Positions 13,687 through 52,175 of a stretch of 60,292 bases of DNA are shown piece after piece (positions within the stretch are counted from its first letter, which is position 1; the number at the start of each line of letters is the position of its first letter). The notes beneath the pieces are model-generated. The model was not told the origin of the DNA. It made no database searches and saw only the letters and a list, made by a program, of their open reading frames with translations. Source of the stretch: a virus (lineage: Duplodnaviria; Caudoviricetes). The stretch covers positions 1 through 60,292 of the IMG/VR virus record IMGVR_UViG_3300010158_000004. The stretch is one strand, 5' to 3'. The position numbers and the translations under genes were made by a program.

Positions 13687-14067
13687 TCAGCCAATTCTCC
13701 AATTAGTTCCGTCGGAGTAAATTGGCACGGGGTTTGTGCCGCCGCCCGAAACTATGGAGGCAAATGTGGTTGCCGTAGCATCGGAAACAAAAGACCTAAC
13801 ACCAACCCCGGAAATTGCCGCACTAGGTAAGTCCCCAACCTTATATATGTATGGGTTCTGCGGATTGGTATTATTTTGATTTGCTTGGCTCGCTGATAGC
13901 GTGGTTGCACTTAATTGATTAACCGTATTATTTATTTGGTTAAAGTAAAGGCGCAGAACGTTGGAATACATCTCTTGGGTTTGAGCGTTGTATTCTTCCG
14001 AAAACTGCGGAAGTCTTGGCACAGCCAAGCCCGCTGTTTTTGTTGATGCCGTTACGGTATTTGTCAT
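13687..14067 (-). CDS. Tail structural protein
   Basis: LP...EEY...LRLYFNQI N-terminus; [15 protein letters not shown]-terminus typical of fibre/needle-associated proteins. Confidence 0.5.
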
Positions 14068-30788: not shown

Positions 30789-31493
30789 TTAATCGAAGTT
30801 ACCGTAGGGGTAAGTGGTCAACGTTCCAATGTTTCCATCGGGCTGTGTATAGCGAACGGTGAAATAGAACTTGCCGGTTGCCAACACACCGGTTGCCACG
30901 GTAAACGGAATCAAAACCGTAAACACAACCTGAGAGAAGAAGGTTGGCTGCGCACCAAGGTTTGGATTCTGAATATCAGAAGATGTGGACGTTTGAGCAA
31001 TAAACTGCGCATCGGTGAATGTTGACAATGCCTGACGGCCAACTGCAGAAATTGTTCCGGTGGCTGCGTAGGTGGACGTATTAAATGCATTACCAACCTT
31101 AACGGAAACGTTTCCGATTGTTCCTGCGGAAAGGGTTGGAACAACTCCGCAATCAATGAAGATGTCATTGATTTCGCAGCCTACTGGCAAATACATCACA
31201 ACACCACGATAGATTGTTCCGCTTGTGCCCGTAGGATCTGCGGTGGGGGTTGTGGTGGTTGGGCCGCTTGTGCTGTAAGAGCTAGAGGGCGTGTAAAGCT
31301 GGCCGGGTAAGTTGGGGATACCGTTGCCCCAAACAAACTGACCGGAGCCTCCGGAGTAATAAGCCGTGCCAGCAGTAGTGACGGTAAAGTCAATGTCTGC
31401 AGCCTGCACCAAGTCGACATAACCAACATTACGCAGGGGGCCAAAACGGTTATCGCCCGAAAGAATCGGGCCTTCAAAAGTAGAACGTGCCAT
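30789..31493 (-). CDS. Head decoration / head fibre protein
   Basis: MARSTFEGPI.SG N-terminus, LP.G..I.DI jelly-roll-like pattern; downstream of the capsid gene. Confidence 0.55.
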   Translation of the reverse strand: MARSTFEGPILSGDNRFGPLRNVGYVDLVQAADIDFTVTTAGTAYYSGGSGQFVWGNGIPNLPGQLYTPSSSYSTSGPTTTTPTADPTGTSGTIYRGVVMYLPVGCEINDIFIDCGVVPTLSAGTIGNVSVKVGNAFNTSTYAATGTISAVGRQALSTFTDAQFIAQTSTSSDIQNPNLGAQPTFFSQVVFTVLIPFTVATGVLATGKFYFTVRYTQPDGNIGTLTTYPYGNFD

Positions 31494-31499
31494 GACAAA

Positions 31500-31575
31500 A
31501 GTCCTTATGCAAAAGAACCCTTACCAATCGTTGCATCGTCTGCTGGGGCAGTGGCGGTAAGGGCAATCACCCAGA
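31500..31575 (-). ncRNA. Pseudoknotted 5' leader RNA (Polynucleobacter-1-motif-like candidate)
   Basis: Interleaved pairings CTGGG/CCCAG and CCCTTACC/GGTAAGGG, plus ATGCAA/TTGCAT next to the RBS; family match from memory only. Confidence 0.45.
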
Positions 31576-31582
31576 TGTGTGC

Positions 31583-31611
31583 AATATACACCCATTTACA
31601 CGCTCAGTCAA
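31583..31611 (-). promoter_or_regulatory. Sigma70 promoter
   Basis: TTGACT-N17-TATATT on the minus strand, upstream of the leader and gene 31493. Confidence 0.7.
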
Positions 31612-31620
31612 CAAATAAGT

Positions 31621-31878
31621 AGTTAGTGGCTCACATAAAGCAGTGTTTATGAAACTACCCCTTGGAGAGCAGAGCTTACCGGCGCTAACCCGATATACCA
31701 CCAACACGGCTGGAGACTGTGCGTGGTAACGGGCTTATCGTTCCTGCCCACGCCTACCTTGTTTGCCGAGATCAATCCCCATGCGTGTTAGTAGTTGGTG
31801 GCTCACATAAAGCAGTGTGTTCTTTAACAACTTCACGAATGCCCTGTACCGGCGCTAACCCGGTACACCACCAACTGT
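31621..31878 (-). ncRNA. Tandem cluster of three structured small RNAs (A-B-A arrangement)
   Basis: Two copies of GTTGGTGG-[hairpin, loop GTTAGCG]-variable-ACACTGCTTTATGTGAG-CCACYAAC flank an AACACGCATGGGGATTG...CAGTCTCCAGCCGTGTT stem; strand is inferred. Confidence 0.6.
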
Positions 31879-31895
31879 TCGTATTGTACAACAGA

Positions 31896-32480
31896 TCAAA
31901 CAAGTTTGTTTGACTTTGCCAAATTTTCTTCGCGGGTGATGACCCGCAGGTTCCACGGCACGTGTAAACCGCAAACGGCGTCAGAGCGCAGCGGGATAAT
32001 GTGATCTACCACGTACTGCTCCCCCGTTAACTTGGTTAACGTCATAGCTGTTTTGTACATCTCTCGAATTTGCGCTTTTTGCGTCTGCGTTAGCCAAGGA
32101 GGTGTGGCTTGGCGGTGTTTGCGGCGACGAGCTTTGGTGTCTGCTTTGACCCATAAAGGATTGCGTTCTTTCCATGCCTTTTGGTACTCTTGCTTCACAT
32201 GGGCAGGCCGCGTAGCGGCAGCTTGTATTACTTGCTCCTTATGTCGCAAATACCATTCATGTTTTTTATCTTGCACCGCTTCTGTTTGGTTGTACTGTTG
32301 AAAGTAGTCCGCACGTTTTGCGTTGTTTAATGCCCACTCCACTTTTAAGCACTCAACGCATGCTCCCTTTACTTTTCGGGGTGCAATATGGCCGTGTTTA
32401 CACGGCTCCCCTGTGAAGTAATGCGTTGCACCTATTGCTTTTGCTTCAGCCCGTGTTTTGGGTAGGGTAGTTGTATCCAT
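31896..32480 (-). CDS. HNH endonuclease (free-standing, homing-like)
   Basis: YFTGEPCKHGH...CVEC N-terminus; VDHIIPL....VCGLHVPWNL.VI...EN..K.N. Confidence 0.9.
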   Translation of the reverse strand: MDTTTLPKTRAEAKAIGATHYFTGEPCKHGHIAPRKVKGACVECLKVEWALNNAKRADYFQQYNQTEAVQDKKHEWYLRHKEQVIQAAATRPAHVKQEYQKAWKERNPLWVKADTKARRRKHRQATPPWLTQTQKAQIREMYKTAMTLTKLTGEQYVVDHIIPLRSDAVCGLHVPWNLRVITREENLAKSNKLV

Positions 32481-32510
32481 ATGATCTCCTGAGACTTAGT
32501 TACAGGTAAT

Positions 32511-32519
32511 ATCATAGCA
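32511..32519 (-). promoter_or_regulatory. Extended -10 promoter for the HNH gene
   Basis: TGCTATGAT (TGn-TATGAT) just past the capsid terminator, upstream of AGGAG RBS. Confidence 0.45.
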
Positions 32520-32530
32520 TACAACAGGCA

Positions 32531-32554
32531 AAGAAAAAGGCCCCGAAGGGCCTT
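32531..32554 (-). terminator. Intrinsic terminator after the major capsid gene
   Basis: AAGGCCC-TTCG-GGGCCTT followed by a T-run on the minus strand. Confidence 0.85.
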
Positions 32555-32578: not shown

Positions 32579-33481
32579 TTAGTACGAACCGTACACGCCC
32601 AGTGGATCGCTGTAGCCGAAGCTATAACGTTCACGAGACTTGTAACGCACGTTTCCGGTGTCGAAGTCTCCATCCATCGAGTTCTGCAGAGCCACACGCT
32701 CAAAGTGCTTCAAACCATTTGGAACGTCAGTGGTCAAGAACCATGCGTTGGTAGCGGTCAAGAAGTGATTGACGGTGTAGCCTTCAGGGATAGAACCGTT
32801 GTTCTTGATGGCGTTGATATCGTTATTGTTGGTGCCGACACGGAGTTCAGTTTCCAGCAAACGGGTAGCAACGAACATCAAAGCAGGCGGAACCACCAGC
32901 TTACGGGGTTTAGCAGCGATCAACAGACCACGCTCGTCAGTCCAAGCAGCGATTGCAATAACGGCGGCTTCCAAGGAAGTCTCGTTCAAATCTGCTGGGG
33001 TAACGGGAGTGTTGCCGTTGGTGCCACCGTTAACCAAGGGGTGAGCCGAGTTAAACAAAGACACGCCATCACCACCGGTGATTGCTGCGTTGAAACCGTT
33101 GTTCAGAACGGAAGCAGCTTTTACTTGCTTAGTGTAAGCCATAGCACGAGCCAGACCTTTGGTGTAGCGAGCAGACAGGCTGTCGTACAGGTTATCTTCA
33201 ATCGCCTCTTCGGTGATGGAGAAACCCAAAGCAATGGTTTCGTGGTTGTAGCGAGCAGTCCAAGCTTCTTGCGCGTTGTCATACTGGATCGCGGAACCCT
33301 CGTTCTTCGTGGGAGCAGCGGAGAAGCCGGAGAGTTTGGTCTCCTCTTCAAAGCTACGCTCAGAAGTTTCGGTTTCGTAGATCTCTTTATGCTCTTCGCC
33401 GTAGCGGGCATATTCCAGACCGAACAAAGCATTCAGACCGGGGAGCAACTCTTTAAGTAGTTGTGCACGTGAAATAGCCAT
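32579..33481 (-). CDS. Major capsid protein (HK97 fold)
   Basis: 300 aa, MAISRAQLLKELLPGLNALFG; K.EG.AI.YD; DFDTGNVRYK.RERYSFG..DP; strong codon bias; followed by terminator. Confidence 0.9.
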   Translation of the reverse strand: MAISRAQLLKELLPGLNALFGLEYARYGEEHKEIYETETSERSFEEETKLSGFSAAPTKNEGSAIQYDNAQEAWTARYNHETIALGFSITEEAIEDNLYDSLSARYTKGLARAMAYTKQVKAASVLNNGFNAAITGGDGVSLFNSAHPLVNGGTNGNTPVTPADLNETSLEAAVIAIAAWTDERGLLIAAKPRKLVVPPALMFVATRLLETELRVGTNNNDINAIKNNGSIPEGYTVNHFLTATNAWFLTTDVPNGLKHFERVALQNSMDGDFDTGNVRYKSRERYSFGYSDPLGVYGSY

Positions 33482-36228: not shown

Positions 36229-36415
36229 CGGATTCCTCTATCTGTTTAGCAAGGTCAAGTAAGTAACCCTCTGCGATGGCTAGACCCTGAATCACCCCGC
36301 AAAGTTTTTGATATTGGTCGAATGTTCCGCATTGCCCAGTGGCAACATCATCTGCGTAATTATTCATGTCATCCCGTATTTTCTTGCGCAGTACGGCTGC
36401 GAATTGATCAATCAT
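36221..36415 (-). CDS. Small portal-proximal protein
   Basis: F.QY..LCG.I.GL motif; lies between portal and GroES. Confidence 0.65.
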   Translation of the reverse strand: MIDQFAAVLRKKIRDDMNNYADDVATGQCGTFDQYQKLCGVIQGLAIAEGYLLDLAKQIEESDD

Positions 36416-38943
36416 TCTTCATCCTGAGTTGGTTGCGCCTCTTGCTGATTAGCTTGCATTTGGCGTTCGCGCATTGCTGCGTCGCGTTTGTGTTTTGCAA
36501 TTTCCAAACCTGTACGCATTCCGGTTTGTTGTTCCGTAGATTGAATGTTGCGTTTGTGTTTTTGCACATCCACACCAACCTTCATACTTTCTAATTGCAG
36601 CGTTCCATCTACCTTTTCTTTCTCTAAGGCAAACTTCATTTCGTGGTTCTTTTGATTTAACTGCAGTTTCATTTGCTCAAGCTGCGCTTGGGCCTGAGCC
36701 TGCTGTTGTTTCAGTTGAACTTCTTGTTGTTTAATCTGCAGTTCCTGCTGTTTAATTTGCAGTTCCTGTTGTTGCATTTGAACCAATGGATCTTGGTTCG
36801 CCTGTTGGTTTTGTTGTTGTTGAGCTTGCTGCTGTTTCTGTTGCAAAACGCGCTGCGCAGCTTGCGCCATTAAAGAGGAAACGGCAACTTCAACCTGTGG
36901 TGGCATTTTTTCATTCTGCGCGGGCAATGCGGTACCCAGTTGTGCCTCTACTTGTTTGCGGTATGAGAATCCAACGTGCTCCGCAATATGAGCTTGCATT
37001 GCAGCCATAATCATTGGGGCCTTTGGGTTTTGCCCGACAAGCTGCATGATCTGTGGATCCTGCATTGCAGATGTGTGCACAGCAATGTGTGCATCATGGT
37101 CTTGGAAAGCAAAAGCTTTCAAAGGAGAACCCCTGAGCGCATTGACATTTTCTGAAACCGGGTCGGTCGGGAACTGATCGTCTGGCAGAGGAACCAACTT
37201 ATCTGCATGCTTAATACCAAGCACCTCAAGCATACGGCGATGCAGTTGAGGCAAGTCATAGATATCCGGAGCCATCTGCGCCATTTGGATAACGGCTTGG
37301 TACTGCACCACACGCTGGCTCATTGTGGCTGCGTTGGGGTCGCTGACGGGGATGATGTCTACGTGAGAGAAATCAGAATGCTTGGACTTGCGGCCACCCT
37401 TCTCTGGGTCAAAGTCGTATTCGCTTGGGCAGTCATCACGAATGATTGCTGCAAGCAATTGAAGTTCTTGTTTAAACGAGTAATGCACACGGGCCTGTAC
37501 GGCGGTCATTACTTTAAGCTGGCGCTCAAGCAGTGCTAACGTTGTACCCACGGGAGCTTGGCTGGACATGTCGCTAATCTGCATGTCTGCGGTAGCGGCA
37601 AAGCGTCGTCCCTCTTCAACAATGTTGTTGAGCAGGTTATAGAGAACTTGGCTTGGCTCTTTATATGGCAGCGGAAGAATGTTGTCCCGCAGAGCGCCCG
37701 AACCAATATCTACGTCTCTAAACTCTCCCGGCGCGATTGGCGTATCATCTCCCTTAATGCGCAATCCACGAGATTTAAGGCCTCCCGGTAGGTTTGAGAG
37801 CGTACCAGCATCGACAAGCTGCCGCATGATTGAGGTTGCTGATTTAGCAAATCCTCCAATGAGGTGGAACAAACCAAACCCGTAAGCCCCGAATCCGGGG
37901 ATATATTGGTAGTGGACAAAGTGTTGGAGCTTGAGCTTGAGTTTGTCATCTTCTTTCCAGTTGCGGCGAACAGATAGAACCTGATTGGTTCCTTTGATGA
38001 TAGTGACTACATAAGGCAGCGCAATGCCCGTCTCCTCGCCCTCATCATCCAAATCTTCAAATCCCTCAAGATCCAAGTCCACCATCATTTCATAAAGGGT
38101 GTAACGGTCATCGTTTAAATCACTAAAACCAGTCTCTTGGTCTTTGGCTTTTTGAATTTCATCCGACTGGCGCAAAGGTTCTGCAAGTTCAACATCTGCG
38201 TAAAAACCGCTTGCCTGCAGCTTCAAAATATCGTTTTTGTGCATACGCATAACATGCGTAACACGGGGAGATGTGCGGATTTCGGTGCAGCCATAAGGCA
38301 AAAGAACGTCTTCTGCGGGCACAAAAGCGGAAACTTGGCGTCCCAAATTGGAATCTTTGTACACCTTTTTGAATGAGGAACCTGCCGCAGGCAGACTCCA
38401 CAGCATTCGTTCCATTTCAGGGCGGAACTCAGGCATTTTTTCAATCAGCTCGTAGTTCATGTCCTCTTGGACATTGGCTGCGGCCTGTTTTTTTTCCGGA
38501 GTCTCTGCGCCCCAGATGGTTGTACGTACTGGGCCTGCTGCGGGGAACATTTCGGTGATGGTTTCGGACTGAAAACGCACCACCGCCTCGGTAATCATTG
38601 GGTGAAACACCCCGGAAGCACCGTTCCAAGGCTCTGTGCGCTCCTCATACTGCAGTCCAAGCAGCTTTAAACCCGTGATATAGGCTTTTTCCCAGTCTTT
38701 ACGGCTGTTTTTGTCATTGTCAGCCTCGCTTGCAAGCTCTGATGCCAAACTTTGGAGCATTGCATCATCTAAAACATCAACCAAGTTAGCAGAGAAGTCA
38801 TCCCCGCTATCCGGAACAATATCAATATCGGTGTTTCCTGCGTGGATGTGTAGTTCTTTTGGATCTACGACCTCAATTTGGATCTCTTCTGCCTCTGGGG
38901 CATCTCCGCGTCCGGGCATAACCTTATCAATGTTTGTAGCCAT
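36412..38943 (-). CDS. Portal protein (P22-like, Gln-rich C-terminal barrel)
   Basis: 843 aa after TerL; SR.DWE, HP...EA...FQ, FV.Y..IPG.G.YG.G; poly-Q coiled coil. Confidence 0.85.
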   Translation of the reverse strand: MATNIDKVMPGRGDAPEAEEIQIEVVDPKELHIHAGNTDIDIVPDSGDDFSANLVDVLDDAMLQSLASELASEADNDKNSRKDWEKAYITGLKLLGLQYEERTEPWNGASGVFHPMITEAVVRFQSETITEMFPAAGPVRTTIWGAETPEKKQAAANVQEDMNYELIEKMPEFRPEMERMLWSLPAAGSSFKKVYKDSNLGRQVSAFVPAEDVLLPYGCTEIRTSPRVTHVMRMHKNDILKLQASGFYADVELAEPLRQSDEIQKAKDQETGFSDLNDDRYTLYEMMVDLDLEGFEDLDDEGEETGIALPYVVTIIKGTNQVLSVRRNWKEDDKLKLKLQHFVHYQYIPGFGAYGFGLFHLIGGFAKSATSIMRQLVDAGTLSNLPGGLKSRGLRIKGDDTPIAPGEFRDVDIGSGALRDNILPLPYKEPSQVLYNLLNNIVEEGRRFAATADMQISDMSSQAPVGTTLALLERQLKVMTAVQARVHYSFKQELQLLAAIIRDDCPSEYDFDPEKGGRKSKHSDFSHVDIIPVSDPNAATMSQRVVQYQAVIQMAQMAPDIYDLPQLHRRMLEVLGIKHADKLVPLPDDQFPTDPVSENVNALRGSPLKAFAFQDHDAHIAVHTSAMQDPQIMQLVGQNPKAPMIMAAMQAHIAEHVGFSYRKQVEAQLGTALPAQNEKMPPQVEVAVSSLMAQAAQRVLQQKQQQAQQQQNQQANQDPLVQMQQQELQIKQQELQIKQQEVQLKQQQAQAQAQLEQMKLQLNQKNHEMKFALEKEKVDGTLQLESMKVGVDVQKHKRNIQSTEQQTGMRTGLEIAKHKRDAAMRERQMQANQQEAQPTQDEE

Positions 38944-50832: not shown

Positions 50833-51270
50833 TCACCCCGTTCGGCTTGCCTTGCGGGGTGTTTTTTTTGGTGCCACCTCCGGTATGCAACGCACGGTAA
50901 TCTCAGCCCTTGGGTTATCCGGATCAAGGTGCCAATAGCAATGCCGCTCCTTGACCTGTCGGTCGTTCGCATAGATGTGGCCTTGCAGTAAGTCCAGTAT
51001 CAGCGTCTCATCCAAGTCAGGTCTACGCGAAGCGTAGTAGATATGCAGAGTCATGCACAAGTCGCCCTCAAGCAACTGATCAAGTGTTTGAATTTGCTGT
51101 TTAAACGCATCACTATAACTAAGCGCCTTCTCGGACTTGATCAGTCTAGACATGCCGCCGAAGCGAACCATCCTGCGACTGTTGCTTTTTGATGCGGGTT
51201 CACCGTAAATAATTAGCGATATATCTTGCACACTGTTCGGTATAGCGATATACTCTTCATTGTCTTCCAT
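50833..51270 (-). CDS. rusA: RusA-like Holliday junction resolvase
   Basis: GEPASKSN, RRPDLD..LILD.LQ..IY.NDRQV, D.DNPR.EI. Confidence 0.85.
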   Translation of the reverse strand: MEDNEEYIAIPNSVQDISLIIYGEPASKSNSRRMVRFGGMSRLIKSEKALSYSDAFKQQIQTLDQLLEGDLCMTLHIYYASRRPDLDETLILDLLQGHIYANDRQVKERHCYWHLDPDNPRAEITVRCIPEVAPKKTPRKASRTG

Positions 51271-51293
51271 TTGCCAACCTTTCTGCCAACATT

Positions 51294-52175
51294 ATGAAAC
51301 TTACCAACATCTACGACCTCCCCCCTGCGCTGGTCAACGCAATGACCAAGGACTCCTACACCAAGGGTGCCTCTGAGTATAGTGTCACTGGGCTATTACA
51401 GCCACCTAAAGTTGCCTTGCTACGCAAGAAATACGATGACCAAATGGTGCAGGACATTTCGGAGAAGGCGTACACCTTCTTGGGAACGGCCTTGCACAAG
51501 GTGCTGGAGGATACCTTGCCAACCGAGGGTTACATCTTTGAAGAACGACTGTTCGCAGAACTTGATGGCACGACCATCAGCGGTGCCATTGATATCCAAG
51601 AGGAAACGCCGTTCGGCGTGACCATTTGGGACTACAAGACTACCTCCGTATGGGCGGTGATGAACGAGAAGATGGACTGGACTTGGCAACTGAACATGTA
51701 CAAGTGGTTTGTTGAAAAGACCAAGGGCAAGAAGGTTGTGTCTCTGAAGATTTGCGCGTTCCTGCGTGACTGGAGCAAGAACGGCAAGGGGGAGAACTAC
51801 CCCAAGGCCTCCATTGTGGTTGTTGATTTGCCTGTGTGGTCACACGCAGAGACCGAAGAATTTATGCGTAAGCGTTTAAATGCTCATAAGTTGGCCAAAG
51901 ATTTATCTGTGCTGGGCGAAGAGTTTATTCCCCCGTGCACAAACGAAGAACGTTGGATGTCGGAAACGACATTTGCCGTGAAGAGAGAGGGTCGCAAGAC
52001 TGCGATCCGTGTTTTAACCGATGCAAAAGAAGCCGAAGAAATGGCAGTAAAGGAAAACGGATATGTCGAAATCAGATCAGGAGAGCCACGCCGATGTGCA
52101 GGCAATTACTGCGGAGTCGCAAAGTGGTGCACCCAGTACCAACCAACCGAAGGAGAGTTTCGTGAAATTGCATGA
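51294..52175 (+). CDS. PD-(D/E)XK (Cas4/RecB-like) exonuclease
   Basis: GTALH, E.R, ISG.ID, DYKTT, QLN.Y, C-terminal RC..YC.V..WC. Confidence 0.85.
   Translation: MKLTNIYDLPPALVNAMTKDSYTKGASEYSVTGLLQPPKVALLRKKYDDQMVQDISEKAYTFLGTALHKVLEDTLPTEGYIFEERLFAELDGTTISGAIDIQEETPFGVTIWDYKTTSVWAVMNEKMDWTWQLNMYKWFVEKTKGKKVVSLKICAFLRDWSKNGKGENYPKASIVVVDLPVWSHAETEEFMRKRLNAHKLAKDLSVLGEEFIPPCTNEERWMSETTFAVKREGRKTAIRVLTDAKEAEEMAVKENGYVEIRSGEPRRCAGNYCGVAKWCTQYQPTEGEFREIA

What the first reader, a model, noticed from the sequence alone, without database searches (positions are those of the whole stretch)
31621..31878. Constant-scaffold, variable-core small RNA array immediately downstream of an HNH nuclease
Seen (minus strand): two ~85-nt units (about 31793-31876 and 31621-31706) share a closing stem GTTGGTGG/CCACYAAC, a hairpin with invariant loop GTTAGCG whose stem variants stay paired via G-U, and ACACTGCTTTATGTGAG. 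They differ completely in a ~26-30-nt core (GGGCATTCGTGAAGTTGTTAAAGAAC vs GCTCTGCTCTCCAAGGGGTAGTTTCATA). The cluster begins about 20 nt after the HNH stop codon. One core is antisense to an ATG AAA CTA start-like sequence and has a 10-nt match to the exonuclease start at 51292, which is chance-level on its own. Inference: programmable antisense or guide RNAs, either modular sRNAs silencing host (defence) mRNAs or, more speculatively, guides for the adjacent HNH.
Basis: partly seen in the sequence, partly recalled or inferred. Interest (0 to 1): 0.75.

Follow-up and report, generated by a model that had tools for sequence, protein, structure and literature searches.

The report
Modular small-RNA cassettes in a phage
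Two copies of a widespread but uncatalogued phage small RNA, with a fixed folded frame around a fast-changing middle segment, lie beside a nuclease gene that turns out to be an unrelated insertion.

Summary
Window 31875-31794 and 31705-31622 (minus strand) are two units sharing a closing stem, a hairpin with loop GUUAGCG and the box ACACUGCUUUAUGUGAG, around unrelated 26- and 30-nt cores. They belong to a large RNA family. It has no Rfam or tRNA match. Covariation supports three helices. The 87 nt between the units are a second conserved stem module, and in relatives such modules form arrays with interchangeable interiors.

The HNH link is not supported. The closest relative (L149) has the same array without the gene, a clean 638-nt insertion in the window. 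A homologue of this HNH occurs in 1 of 148 loci, 8.3 kb from the unit.

Cores diverge far faster than their flanks and are enriched in anti-Shine-Dalgarno-like CUCCU/UCCUU. No target was found in phage DNA. Units are mostly promoter-proximal leaders.

Best reading, about 0.4: a C4-like scaffolded base-pairing RNA. A cis-acting leader element is a close rival. First readers of this scan noted the same family on at least six other genomes.

The parts
31794..31875 (-). Unit A of the RNA family. Closing stem 31875-31868 with 31801-31794. Hairpin 1 31867-31845, with loop GUUAGCG at 31859-31853. Variable core 31844-31819. Box ACACUGCUUUAUGUGAG 31818-31802, holding mini-hairpin 3 (CAC/GUG).
   Evidence: (81.1 bits)
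31703..31789 (-). Spacer module X. A long stem AACACG-CA-UGGGGAUUG / CAGUCUCCA-GC-CGUGUU with a 2x2 internal loop encloses a 53-nt interior. Its last 3 nt overlap the closing stem of unit B. Nearly the same interior recurs in locus L039.
31622..31705 (-). Unit B of the RNA family. Closing stem 31705-31698 with 31629-31622 (one G-U pair). Hairpin 1 about 31697-31677, with its loop at 31689-31683. Variable core 31676-31647. Box 31646-31630.
   Evidence: (77.7 bits)
31883..31888 (-). -10-like hexamer TACAAT, 7 nt before the first base of unit A. It is TATAAT in relative L149. No -35 element was recognised.
   Evidence: It was not called by the two-hexamer scan.
31583..31611 (-). Sigma-70-like promoter TTGACT-N17-TATATT, starting 11 nt after unit B. 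It drives the leader and the 234-aa ORF 30789-31493.
   Evidence: conserved in L149
31896..32480 (-). HNH / endonuclease VII-like ORF (194 aa). It is not part of the RNA system and lies within a 638-nt insertion (about 31901-32538) relative to L149.
   Evidence: (phrog_26577 at 8.1e-25, phrog_1035 at 3.2e-18); no Pfam hit at E<=0.01
32537..32554 (-). Terminator-like hairpin after the major head protein gene (32579-33481). In L149 the array's -10 element follows it directly.

Best explanation
The locus is a promoter-proximal array of three stem-closed small-RNA modules, in the order unit A, spacer module X, unit B. It lies between the major head protein gene and the promoter of the next late operon.

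Units A and B belong to a large, so far uncatalogued family carried mainly by phages of freshwater Burkholderiales. The fold is cloverleaf-like: a terminal closing stem, hairpin 1 with the invariant loop GUUAGCG, a variable region of about 12-45 nt, and mini-hairpin 3 with the invariant CUGCUUUAUG. All of this is shown.

Inferred: the constant part is a folding, processing or protein-binding frame. The variable region is the specificity element that base-pairs with other RNAs, often at Shine-Dalgarno regions, to repress translation. This is how the P1/P7 C4 immunity RNA uses its loops. Different phages carry different cores and so have different targets, in the host or in competing phages.

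The adjacent HNH gene is a free-standing homing-type endonuclease that inserted next to the array. It plays no part in the RNA system.

My confidence that this is a real, HNH-independent structured RNA family is about 0.95. The 0.4 given below is for the base-pairing mechanism.
For: Structure:
- On 99 units, 93.9% of cells pair, against 68.4% in shuffles, and 17 of 19 pairs change on both sides. No shuffle out of 500 and no slid control comes near. The alignment was fitted to the model, which favours the structure.
- The hairpin-3 pair is AU in 80 units, GC in 10, UA in 7 and CG in 2.
- An independent MAFFT alignment of 26 units gives 96.4% paired, with 10 of 16 pairs covarying.
- The G-U pairs fit the minus strand only.

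Spread:
- 39 IMG/VR loci hold the exact 21-mer.

The core is functional and specific:
- Recurrent classes have conserved words, for example a hairpin loop UUGUGCAAAUAC on a covarying stem.
- In 68 locus pairs whose upstream flank is at least 90% identical, median identity is 0.96 for the flank, 0.955 and 0.96 for the two scaffold halves, and 0.79 for the core. The core falls as low as 0.39.
- Between the window and L149 the flanks are nearly identical, core A differs at about a third of its positions, and unit B is replaced by another cargo.
- CUCC/CCUC/UCCU occurs in 35.8% of 67 core clusters, against 13.7% (sd 4.0) in shuffles, reached by 0 of 500 shuffles. The complementary SD-like words are flat, 16.4% against 16.7%.

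Stand-alone genes: the copies in bacterial genome G122 start next to a -10-like hexamer and end at intrinsic terminators. One lies in a prophage-like region.

Independence from HNH.

The C4 mechanism, with a closing stem, two hairpins, processing out of a longer transcript and a loop that occludes the ribosome-binding site, is taken from passages of PMC5320573.
Against: No target was found:
- On the phage's own genome, core matches score 11-12.5, against shuffled maxima of 10.8-17.3.
- Of 133 cores tested against their held loci, 3.8% reach p<=0.05.
- For the 90 nt downstream of the unit the figure is 7.2%, against 8.4% for an upstream control.
- Complements of five class motifs and of the two window cores occur 0 times in 1.34 Mb of phage loci.
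- For the window's 74 start regions, core A is beaten by 117 of 150 shuffles and core B by 7 of 150.
- The complement of one class loop was found in 9 of 101 host-family genomes, in unrelated contexts.

Most units look like parts of mRNA leaders rather than separate genes:
- A -10-like hexamer lies 4-10 nt upstream in 36 of 99 units, against 6 of 99 at a shifted control position.
- An ORF start with an SD lies within 40 nt downstream in 38 of 99, against 5 of 99 for the control.
- Few units have terminators.

Anti-SD words are not linked to an adjacent ORF (17 of 40 against 21 of 59, p 0.53).

In C4 the loops vary, whereas here the loops are invariant and the inter-hairpin segment varies. Transcription, processing and ends were not observed.
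Confidence: 0.4

Rival explanations
1. It is a cis-acting leader element. The folded frame, transcribed first from a phage promoter, acts on the complex that makes or reads the same transcript. One form is processive antitermination like HK022 put RNA. Another is protection of the 5' end or recruitment of ribosomes. Under this reading the variable region is a tolerated insertion or an accessory hairpin.
For: - The units are promoter-proximal: a -10-like hexamer precedes 36 of 99 units against 6 of 99 for the control, and others sit in arrays that start at promoters.
- An SD and ORF start lie within 40 nt downstream in 38 of 99 units against 5 of 99.
- The downstream genes are diverse early and late operon heads, including Sak-like, helicase, replication and cro-like genes and a phrog_13900 'minor head protein' family; the window's own 234-aa late ORF 30789-31493 has no family.
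- No phage protein partner is conserved nearby, which fits use of a host machine.
- Some copies are followed directly by an intrinsic terminator and then by genes.
- put RNA is about 70 nt, has two stem-loops and lies just downstream of the early promoters (passages of PMC9378689).
Against: - A passive insertion would not diverge faster than the neighbouring non-coding flanks.
- It would not fall into classes with conserved words.
- It would not be enriched in anti-SD words on one strand only.
- In the window a separate strong promoter lies between unit B and the next gene, so polymerases from that promoter never transcribe the units.
- The closing stem and the variable length differ from put.
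Confidence: 0.3
2. It is a tRNA-like or other decoy. The cloverleaf-like fold and its invariant loops would bind and titrate a host protein, such as an RNase, an RNA chaperone or a defence nuclease, or would serve as a substrate for tRNA-processing enzymes.
For: - The fold is a four-way cloverleaf-like shape when the core forms a hairpin.
- One unit lies inside a phage tRNA gene cluster (L021).
- The invariant loops across very different phages suggest a conserved host partner.
- The arrays resemble tRNA clusters.
Against: - ARAGORN finds no tRNA or tmRNA in the window or in any of 99 units.
- There is no Rfam tRNA or Y-RNA-like match even at E<=10.
- A decoy does not explain the rapidly diverging, class-structured core.
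Confidence: 0.12
3. It is a metabolite- or ion-sensing riboswitch in phage 5' leaders.
For: The units lie in 5' UTRs. They combine invariant loop nucleotides with covarying stems and a variable-length insertion. Some copies are followed by terminators.
Against: The downstream genes share no function. Units occur in tandem arrays far from any ORF, and in the window they lie upstream of another promoter. No alternative pairing with the SD is enriched: 10% of 40 units reach p<=0.05, with median z +0.24.
Confidence: 0.04
4. It is a DNA-level element. The conserved inverted repeats would serve as recombination or cassette-exchange sites, or as Chi-like sequences. That GTTGGTGG is one base from the E. 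coli Chi sequence is recalled, not tested.
For: Interiors are exchanged between identical closing stems in close relatives. The closing-stem sequences recur across phages.
Against: - The closing stems covary through many sequences with pairing kept, 98.5% of cells across all 8 pairs.
- The G-U pairs would be A-C mismatches on the other strand.
- Orientation relative to promoters and genes is consistent.
Recombination at the shared stems may still be the way cores are exchanged.
Confidence: 0.03
5. They are guide RNAs for the adjacent HNH nuclease.
For: Only the 20-nt spacing between the HNH stop codon and unit A.
Against: - The closest relative keeps the array and lacks the HNH gene, whose presence in the window is a clean 638-nt insertion.
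- This HNH family occurs in 1 of 148 loci, 8.3 kb away from the unit.
- A different HNH family (phrog_131) occurs in 20 of 149 loci. In the one locus whose coordinates I compared (L080) it lies about 4.3 kb from the unit.
- The protein has 194 aa and matches only ordinary free-standing phage endonuclease families.
Confidence: 0.01

Closest known systems
C4 antisense RNA of phages P1/P7 (Rfam C4 family; accession RF01695 is recalled)
   Same: It is a phage-borne RNA of about 77 nt with a terminal stem closing two hairpins. It is cut out of a longer leader transcript, and variable segments in a constant frame set target specificity. One of those segments occludes a ribosome-binding site (passages of PMC5320573). 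The family here has the same overall fold, the leader position and anti-SD-like words.
   Different: No Rfam family matches, even at E<=10. In C4 the hairpin loops vary, whereas here both loops are invariant and the segment between the hairpins varies. C4 targets lie in its own operon, and none was found here. RNase P processing was not tested.
HK022 put antiterminator RNA
   Same: It is a structured RNA of about 70 nt with two stem-loops, placed just downstream of phage promoters. It acts without a phage protein (passages of PMC9378689).
   Different: Here there is a closing stem, a variable middle of 12-45 nt, tandem arrays with spacer modules, and stand-alone copies. No put model was at hand to test sequence or structure similarity.
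Phage tRNA gene clusters and tRNA-like small RNAs
   Same: Both are arrays of stem-closed cloverleaf-like RNAs in one transcription unit. One family member lies among phage tRNA genes.
   Different: No tRNA or tmRNA features are detected. The loops are unlike D, anticodon or T loops.
Prophage-encoded base-pairing sRNAs of enterobacteria (for example the Pas sRNAs)
   Same: They are mobile-element-borne regulators that vary in sequence and copy number (abstract of 10.64898/2026.05.13.724894).
   Different: There is no sequence or structural relation. Whether those sRNAs stand alone or sit in leaders, and what 3' ends they have, I did not read (abstract and outline only). The family here mostly lacks terminators and sits in leaders or arrays.

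Membership tests
C4 antisense RNA (Rfam) | Match to the Rfam covariance model | tested here: not met
   No Rfam 15 family matches at gathering score over the window or at E<=10 over 31400-32000. There is also none in the related phage or bacterial loci.
C4 antisense RNA (Rfam) | Terminal stem closing two hairpins in an RNA of about 80 nt | tested here: met
   Three helices are supported by covariation on 99 units.
C4 antisense RNA (Rfam) | Variable hairpin loops (a', b') complementary to sites in the same operon, one at a ribosome-binding site | tested here: not met
   The loops are invariant. The variable part lies between the hairpins. No excess complementarity to downstream or neighbouring sequence was found.
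C4 antisense RNA (Rfam) | 5' end made by RNase P from a longer transcript | not testable with these tools
   Needs RNA end mapping or an in-vitro RNase P assay.
tRNA / tmRNA | Cloverleaf with canonical D, anticodon and T arms, detectable by ARAGORN or the Rfam tRNA model | tested here: not met
   0 genes in the window, 0 of 99 units and no Rfam match.
RNA-guided nuclease system (guide plus HNH effector) | Guide RNA and effector gene co-occur across genomes | tested here: not met
   The HNH homologue is in 1 of 148 loci, 8,290 nt from the unit. The closest relative has the array without the HNH gene. The top neighbour protein cluster is in 27 of 149 loci.
HK022 put-type antiterminator RNA | Promoter-proximal position in the transcription unit | tested here: met
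   A -10-like hexamer lies 4-10 nt upstream in 36 of 99 units, against 6 of 99 for the control. Arrays start at promoters.
HK022 put-type antiterminator RNA | Two-stem-loop fold that binds RNA polymerase and suppresses termination | not testable with these tools
   No put model or sequence was at hand. The function needs a transcription assay.
Terminator-ended trans-acting sRNA gene | Own promoter and intrinsic terminator with a U tail | tested here: not met
   The window has no terminator after either unit. A crude scan finds a T-run downstream of 11 of 99 units. The feature is met only in some bacterial copies (G122).
Riboswitch | Consistent association with genes of one pathway and an expression platform overlapping the aptamer | tested here: not met
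   The downstream genes are diverse. There is no enriched pairing with the adjacent ribosome-binding site.

The most novel reading that the evidence does not exclude
Phages of freshwater Burkholderiales carry a natural plug-in RNA cassette system. Two standard adaptor stems, GUUGGUGG/CCACCAAC and the ACACG-CA-UGGGGAUUG type, present interchangeable RNA cargos in arrays. One cargo frame, the GUUAGCG / CUGCUUUAUG cloverleaf, displays a rapidly diversifying targeting segment of 12-45 nt. That would be a scaffolded, reprogrammable antisense platform, used in phage-host or phage-phage conflict to silence defence or competitor mRNAs at their ribosome-binding sites, and exchanged between phages by recombination at the shared stems.
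Probability: 0.2. Interest if true: 0.85.

Novelty: new variant of a known kind. Interest (0 to 1): 0.66.

Why it matters
If the variable segment really sets target specificity, this is a large natural family of scaffolded antisense RNAs. It is abundant in uncultured freshwater phages, absent from Rfam 15, and not found in my five literature searches. It would be a new route by which phages reprogram hosts or exclude rivals, and a ready-made frame for designed RNA regulators.

Even if the function differs, three things stand. The family has three covarying helices. The array architecture uses two adaptor stems with interchangeable interiors. The family is also large enough for a proper Rfam entry and for experiments.

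The work also removes a tempting but false lead, an RNA-guided HNH. The catalogue of about 8,500 candidate structured RNAs from IMG/VR (PMC10690425) may already list the motif. Its supplementary tables could not be opened.

Tried and rejected
HNH guide idea. Rejected on distribution.

Known families. Rfam at gathering score and at E<=10, ARAGORN, and Rfam on 12 related and 4 bacterial loci gave nothing for the units.

Targets.
- Own genome, held loci, the 90 nt downstream, adjacent ribosome-binding sites and class-motif complements in 1.34 Mb of phage DNA all stayed at chance.
- One phage group with the ribosome-binding site UUAGGAG has CUCCUA-type cores in 4 of 13 units, against 8 of 126 elsewhere (Fisher p 0.015). 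The units are related to one another, so I treat this only as a lead.
- The core of the G122 copies has no extended target in that genome (3+5 hits against 7+6 control hits).
- The complement of the class-i loop was found in 9 of 101 family genomes, 11 hits against 2 control hits. The contexts are unrelated and none lies in a family member.
- The exonuclease start match is real but at chance level. It has p 0.02 on a start region picked afterwards, is not among the top five of 74 start regions, and homologous genes in L020 and L022 show nothing.
- The best start-region duplex of core B, at 14067, is loose and marginal, being matched by 7 of 150 shuffles.

Protein partner. Clustering 2,199 ORFs from 149 loci gave no family in more than 27 loci.

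Second array elsewhere in the window. None was found.

Expression. The one RNA run offered (X1, lake-water metatranscriptome, contigs only) covers 31077-31423 and part of a relative's leader but not the units. This says nothing either way.

Loop-loop kissing between AGC and GCU, and a resemblance of the hairpin-3 loop to boxA, were considered from recall. Both loops are invariant, so neither idea could be tested. CRISPR-like, TIGR-like and type III antitoxin arrays were considered from recall and dropped, because the units are not short tandem repeats.

Literature. Five searches found no description of this family. I read only passages or abstracts of PMC5320573, PMC9378689, PMC10690425 and 10.64898/2026.05.13.724894.

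Full report
WHAT IS THERE. The window is a complete 60,292-bp virus record with direct terminal repeats. On the minus strand the order is:
- portal gene 36412-38943 and major head protein gene 32579-33481;
- a terminator-like hairpin at 32554-32537;
- a 194-aa HNH / endonuclease VII-like ORF at 31896-32480 (no Pfam hit);
- after 20 nt, unit A (31875-31794), a spacer module (31789-31703) and unit B (31705-31622);
- a sigma-70-like promoter TTGACT-N17-TATATT at 31611-31583;
- a leader and a 234-aa ORF (30789-31493).

The two units share the closing stem, hairpin 1 with loop GUUAGCG, and the box ACACUGCUUUAUGUGAG. They differ completely in a core of 26 or 30 nt. The shared words occur twice in the window, against about 0 expected. 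The two sequence differences inside stems both give G-U pairs on the minus strand. Alone, unit A folds with z = -3.4 and unit B with z = -1.7.

IT IS A FAMILY. The exact 21-mer of the box occurs in 39 IMG/VR loci. That gave 148 viral loci and 139 distinct units.

A MAFFT alignment of 26 units gave 96.4% pairing, with 10 of 16 pairs changed on both sides. A model-based alignment of 99 units gave 93.9% pairing against 68.4% in shuffles, with 17 of 19 pairs covarying, and slid controls reached at most 45.7%. That alignment was fitted to the structure, which favours it. A third small hairpin is shown by one fully covarying pair that flanks the invariant CUGCUUUAUG (AU 80, GC 10, UA 7, CG 2). The closing stems differ widely in sequence and length and still pair in 98.5% of cells.

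No tRNA, tmRNA or Rfam family matches the units. With the refined model and filters off, the window holds exactly two copies.

WHERE IT LIVES. A scan of one genome per prokaryote species found the motif pair in four records, all Burkholderiales. They are Curvibacter sp. CHRR-16 and three MAGs: one Rhodoferax, one labelled Burkholderiales and one labelled uncultured beta proteobacterium. The models found it in 2 of 121 genomes sampled from that family and in 2 of 151 sampled from the order. The family is therefore sporadic in cells and common in phage contigs.

Genome G122 has three copies. Each starts next to a -10-like hexamer and ends at an intrinsic terminator. One lies beside an S24 repressor and a RecT gene. 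The Curvibacter copy lies between gyrA and an ORF with no known family.

ARRAYS. In related loci the unit is one module in chains of stem-closed RNAs. There are two kinds of closing stem:
- the GUUGG(UGG)/(CCA)CCAAC type;
- the type seen in the window's spacer, ACACG-CA-UGGGGAUUG / CAGUCCCCA-GC-CGUGU, with a 2x2 internal loop.

The second type occurs in 54 of 149 sources. Its stem shows compensatory changes, namely GGGG/CCCC to GAGG/CCUC, UAGG/CCUA and GUGG/CCAC. Both kinds of stem enclose many different interiors, some of which recur between phages. The interior of the window's spacer is nearly the same as one in L039. The family's frame can sit inside either kind of stem (L073, L078, L125). 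One unit lies in a phage tRNA cluster, and one locus also has the Rfam motif Betaproteobacteria-1.

THE HNH GENE IS AN INSERTION. L149 is the closest relative: its head protein is 98.7% identical, and its copy of the 234-aa ORF is 82% identical. The aligned flanks are nearly identical. L149 goes straight from the head-gene terminator to the -10 element and unit A, whereas the window has 638 extra nucleotides holding the HNH ORF. A homologue of this HNH is present in 1 of 148 loci (L009). There it sits after the head gene, 8,290 nt from the unit. No protein cluster from the flanks is shared by more than 27 of 149 loci. The guide-for-HNH idea is therefore rejected.

WHAT THE CORE LOOKS LIKE. Core length runs from about 12 to 45 nt. 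Three recurring classes stand out:
- a hairpin with a covarying stem and the conserved loop UUGUGCAAAUAC;
- a class with AGUGUUGUUC;
- a class with CCUCCUAA or UCCUUUC followed by GUUUUGAAA or GGACGAAA.

After clustering 138 cores into 67 groups, anti-SD-like four-letter words occur in 35.8% of groups, against 13.7% (sd 4.0) in shuffles, reached by 0 of 500 shuffles. The complementary words are not enriched (16.4% against 16.7%). The most enriched five-letter words are CUCCU (10 against 1.0) and UCCUU (12 against 2.1).

In 68 locus pairs whose 120-nt upstream flank is at least 90% identical, median identity is 0.96 for the flank, 0.955 and 0.96 for the two scaffold halves, 0.79 for the core and 0.835 for the downstream flank. 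In 34 of these pairs the core is below 0.8. Between the window and L149, core A differs at about one position in three, the spacer interior is different, and unit B is replaced by another cargo, all between nearly identical flanks. The core is thus constrained within classes and exchanged or diversified between close relatives.

TARGET SEARCHES. All were negative or marginal; details are under Tried and rejected. Short seeds of 6-8 nt and host targets could not be tested, because the host is not known.

CONTEXT.
- A -10-like TANNNT lies 4-10 nt before the closing stem in 36 of 99 units, against 6 of 99 at a control position.
- An SD plus the start of an ORF of at least 50 aa lies within 40 nt after the stem in 38 of 99, against 5 of 99 for a divergent control.
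- The downstream genes are heads of early and late operons of many kinds.
- Anti-SD words are not more frequent in units with an adjacent ORF.

This context fits a leader element at least as well as a separate sRNA gene.

READING. Shown:
- a real, widespread, HNH-independent structured RNA family in modular arrays;
- an invariant frame;
- a fast-diverging core that falls into classes and is rich in anti-SD words;
- a promoter-proximal position.

Inferred: the mechanism. I favour a C4-like scaffolded base-pairing RNA at 0.4, because only a recognition role explains the behaviour of the core. The description of C4 comes from passages of PMC5320573. A cis-acting leader function such as put-like antitermination stands at 0.3 (passages of PMC9378689). 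It explains the position better and the core worse. The other rivals are a decoy (0.12), a riboswitch (0.04), a DNA-level element (0.03) and an HNH guide (0.01).

NOVELTY. The family is not in Rfam 15 and did not turn up in five literature searches. First readers of this scan had noted the same frame or arrays on at least six other genomes, and none of those notes had been followed up.

Noticed in passing
window 31901-32538: The HNH / endonuclease VII-like gene is a clean 638-nt insertion relative to L149, placed exactly between the head-gene terminator and the array's -10 element. In L009 a 56% identical homologue also follows the head gene. This looks like a homing endonuclease with a preferred site after the major head protein gene.
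   Followed up: partly
window 31500-31611; L149, L012, L028: The leader between the TTGACT-N17-TATATT promoter and the 234-aa ORF is nearly identical in L149. A related leader precedes the homologous ORF in L012 and L028. Rfam gives no match there.
   Followed up: partly
L003, L005, L006, L010, L013, L037, L039 (arrays next to the unit): At least eight other stem-closed cargo RNAs of 55-130 nt share the same adaptor stems. Some recur between phages, for example the cargo beginning GGUAGCGUAAUAGGAAACC in L003 and L009. None has an Rfam match at gathering score.
   Followed up: no
L005 1481-1598 (-): A Betaproteobacteria-1 RNA (RF02932, 101 bits) lies about 580 nt downstream of the unit on the same strand of a phage contig. 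An orphan Rfam motif is therefore phage-borne here.
   Followed up: no
L043/L049 (Curvibacter sp. CHRR-16 contig, G001:C4:187258-187356): A family member with a completely different 15-bp closing stem sits in the gap between a divergent gyrA and a 781-aa ORF that has no Pfam family. This appears to be outside any obvious prophage.
   Followed up: partly
window 31868-31875 and 31698-31705, and many loci: The commonest closing-stem word GTTGGTGG differs by one base from the E. coli Chi sequence as I recall it. The stems covary, so this is probably coincidence.
   Followed up: no
window 31077-31423: A lake-water metatranscriptome run (X1, contigs) holds a 347-nt contig identical to part of the 234-aa ORF. 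Either this phage or a near-identical one was present in that sample, or the gene was transcribed there.
   Followed up: no
window 51268-51296: The start codons of the divergent ORFs 50833-51270 (-) and 51294-52175 (+) are only 23 nt apart. That leaves little room for two promoters, so one start may be mis-called.
   Followed up: no
window 31719-31913 (+): A 64-aa GTG ORF on the opposite strand overlaps unit A and the spacer. The indel-rich variation of these segments between relatives argues against it being coding.
   Followed up: no
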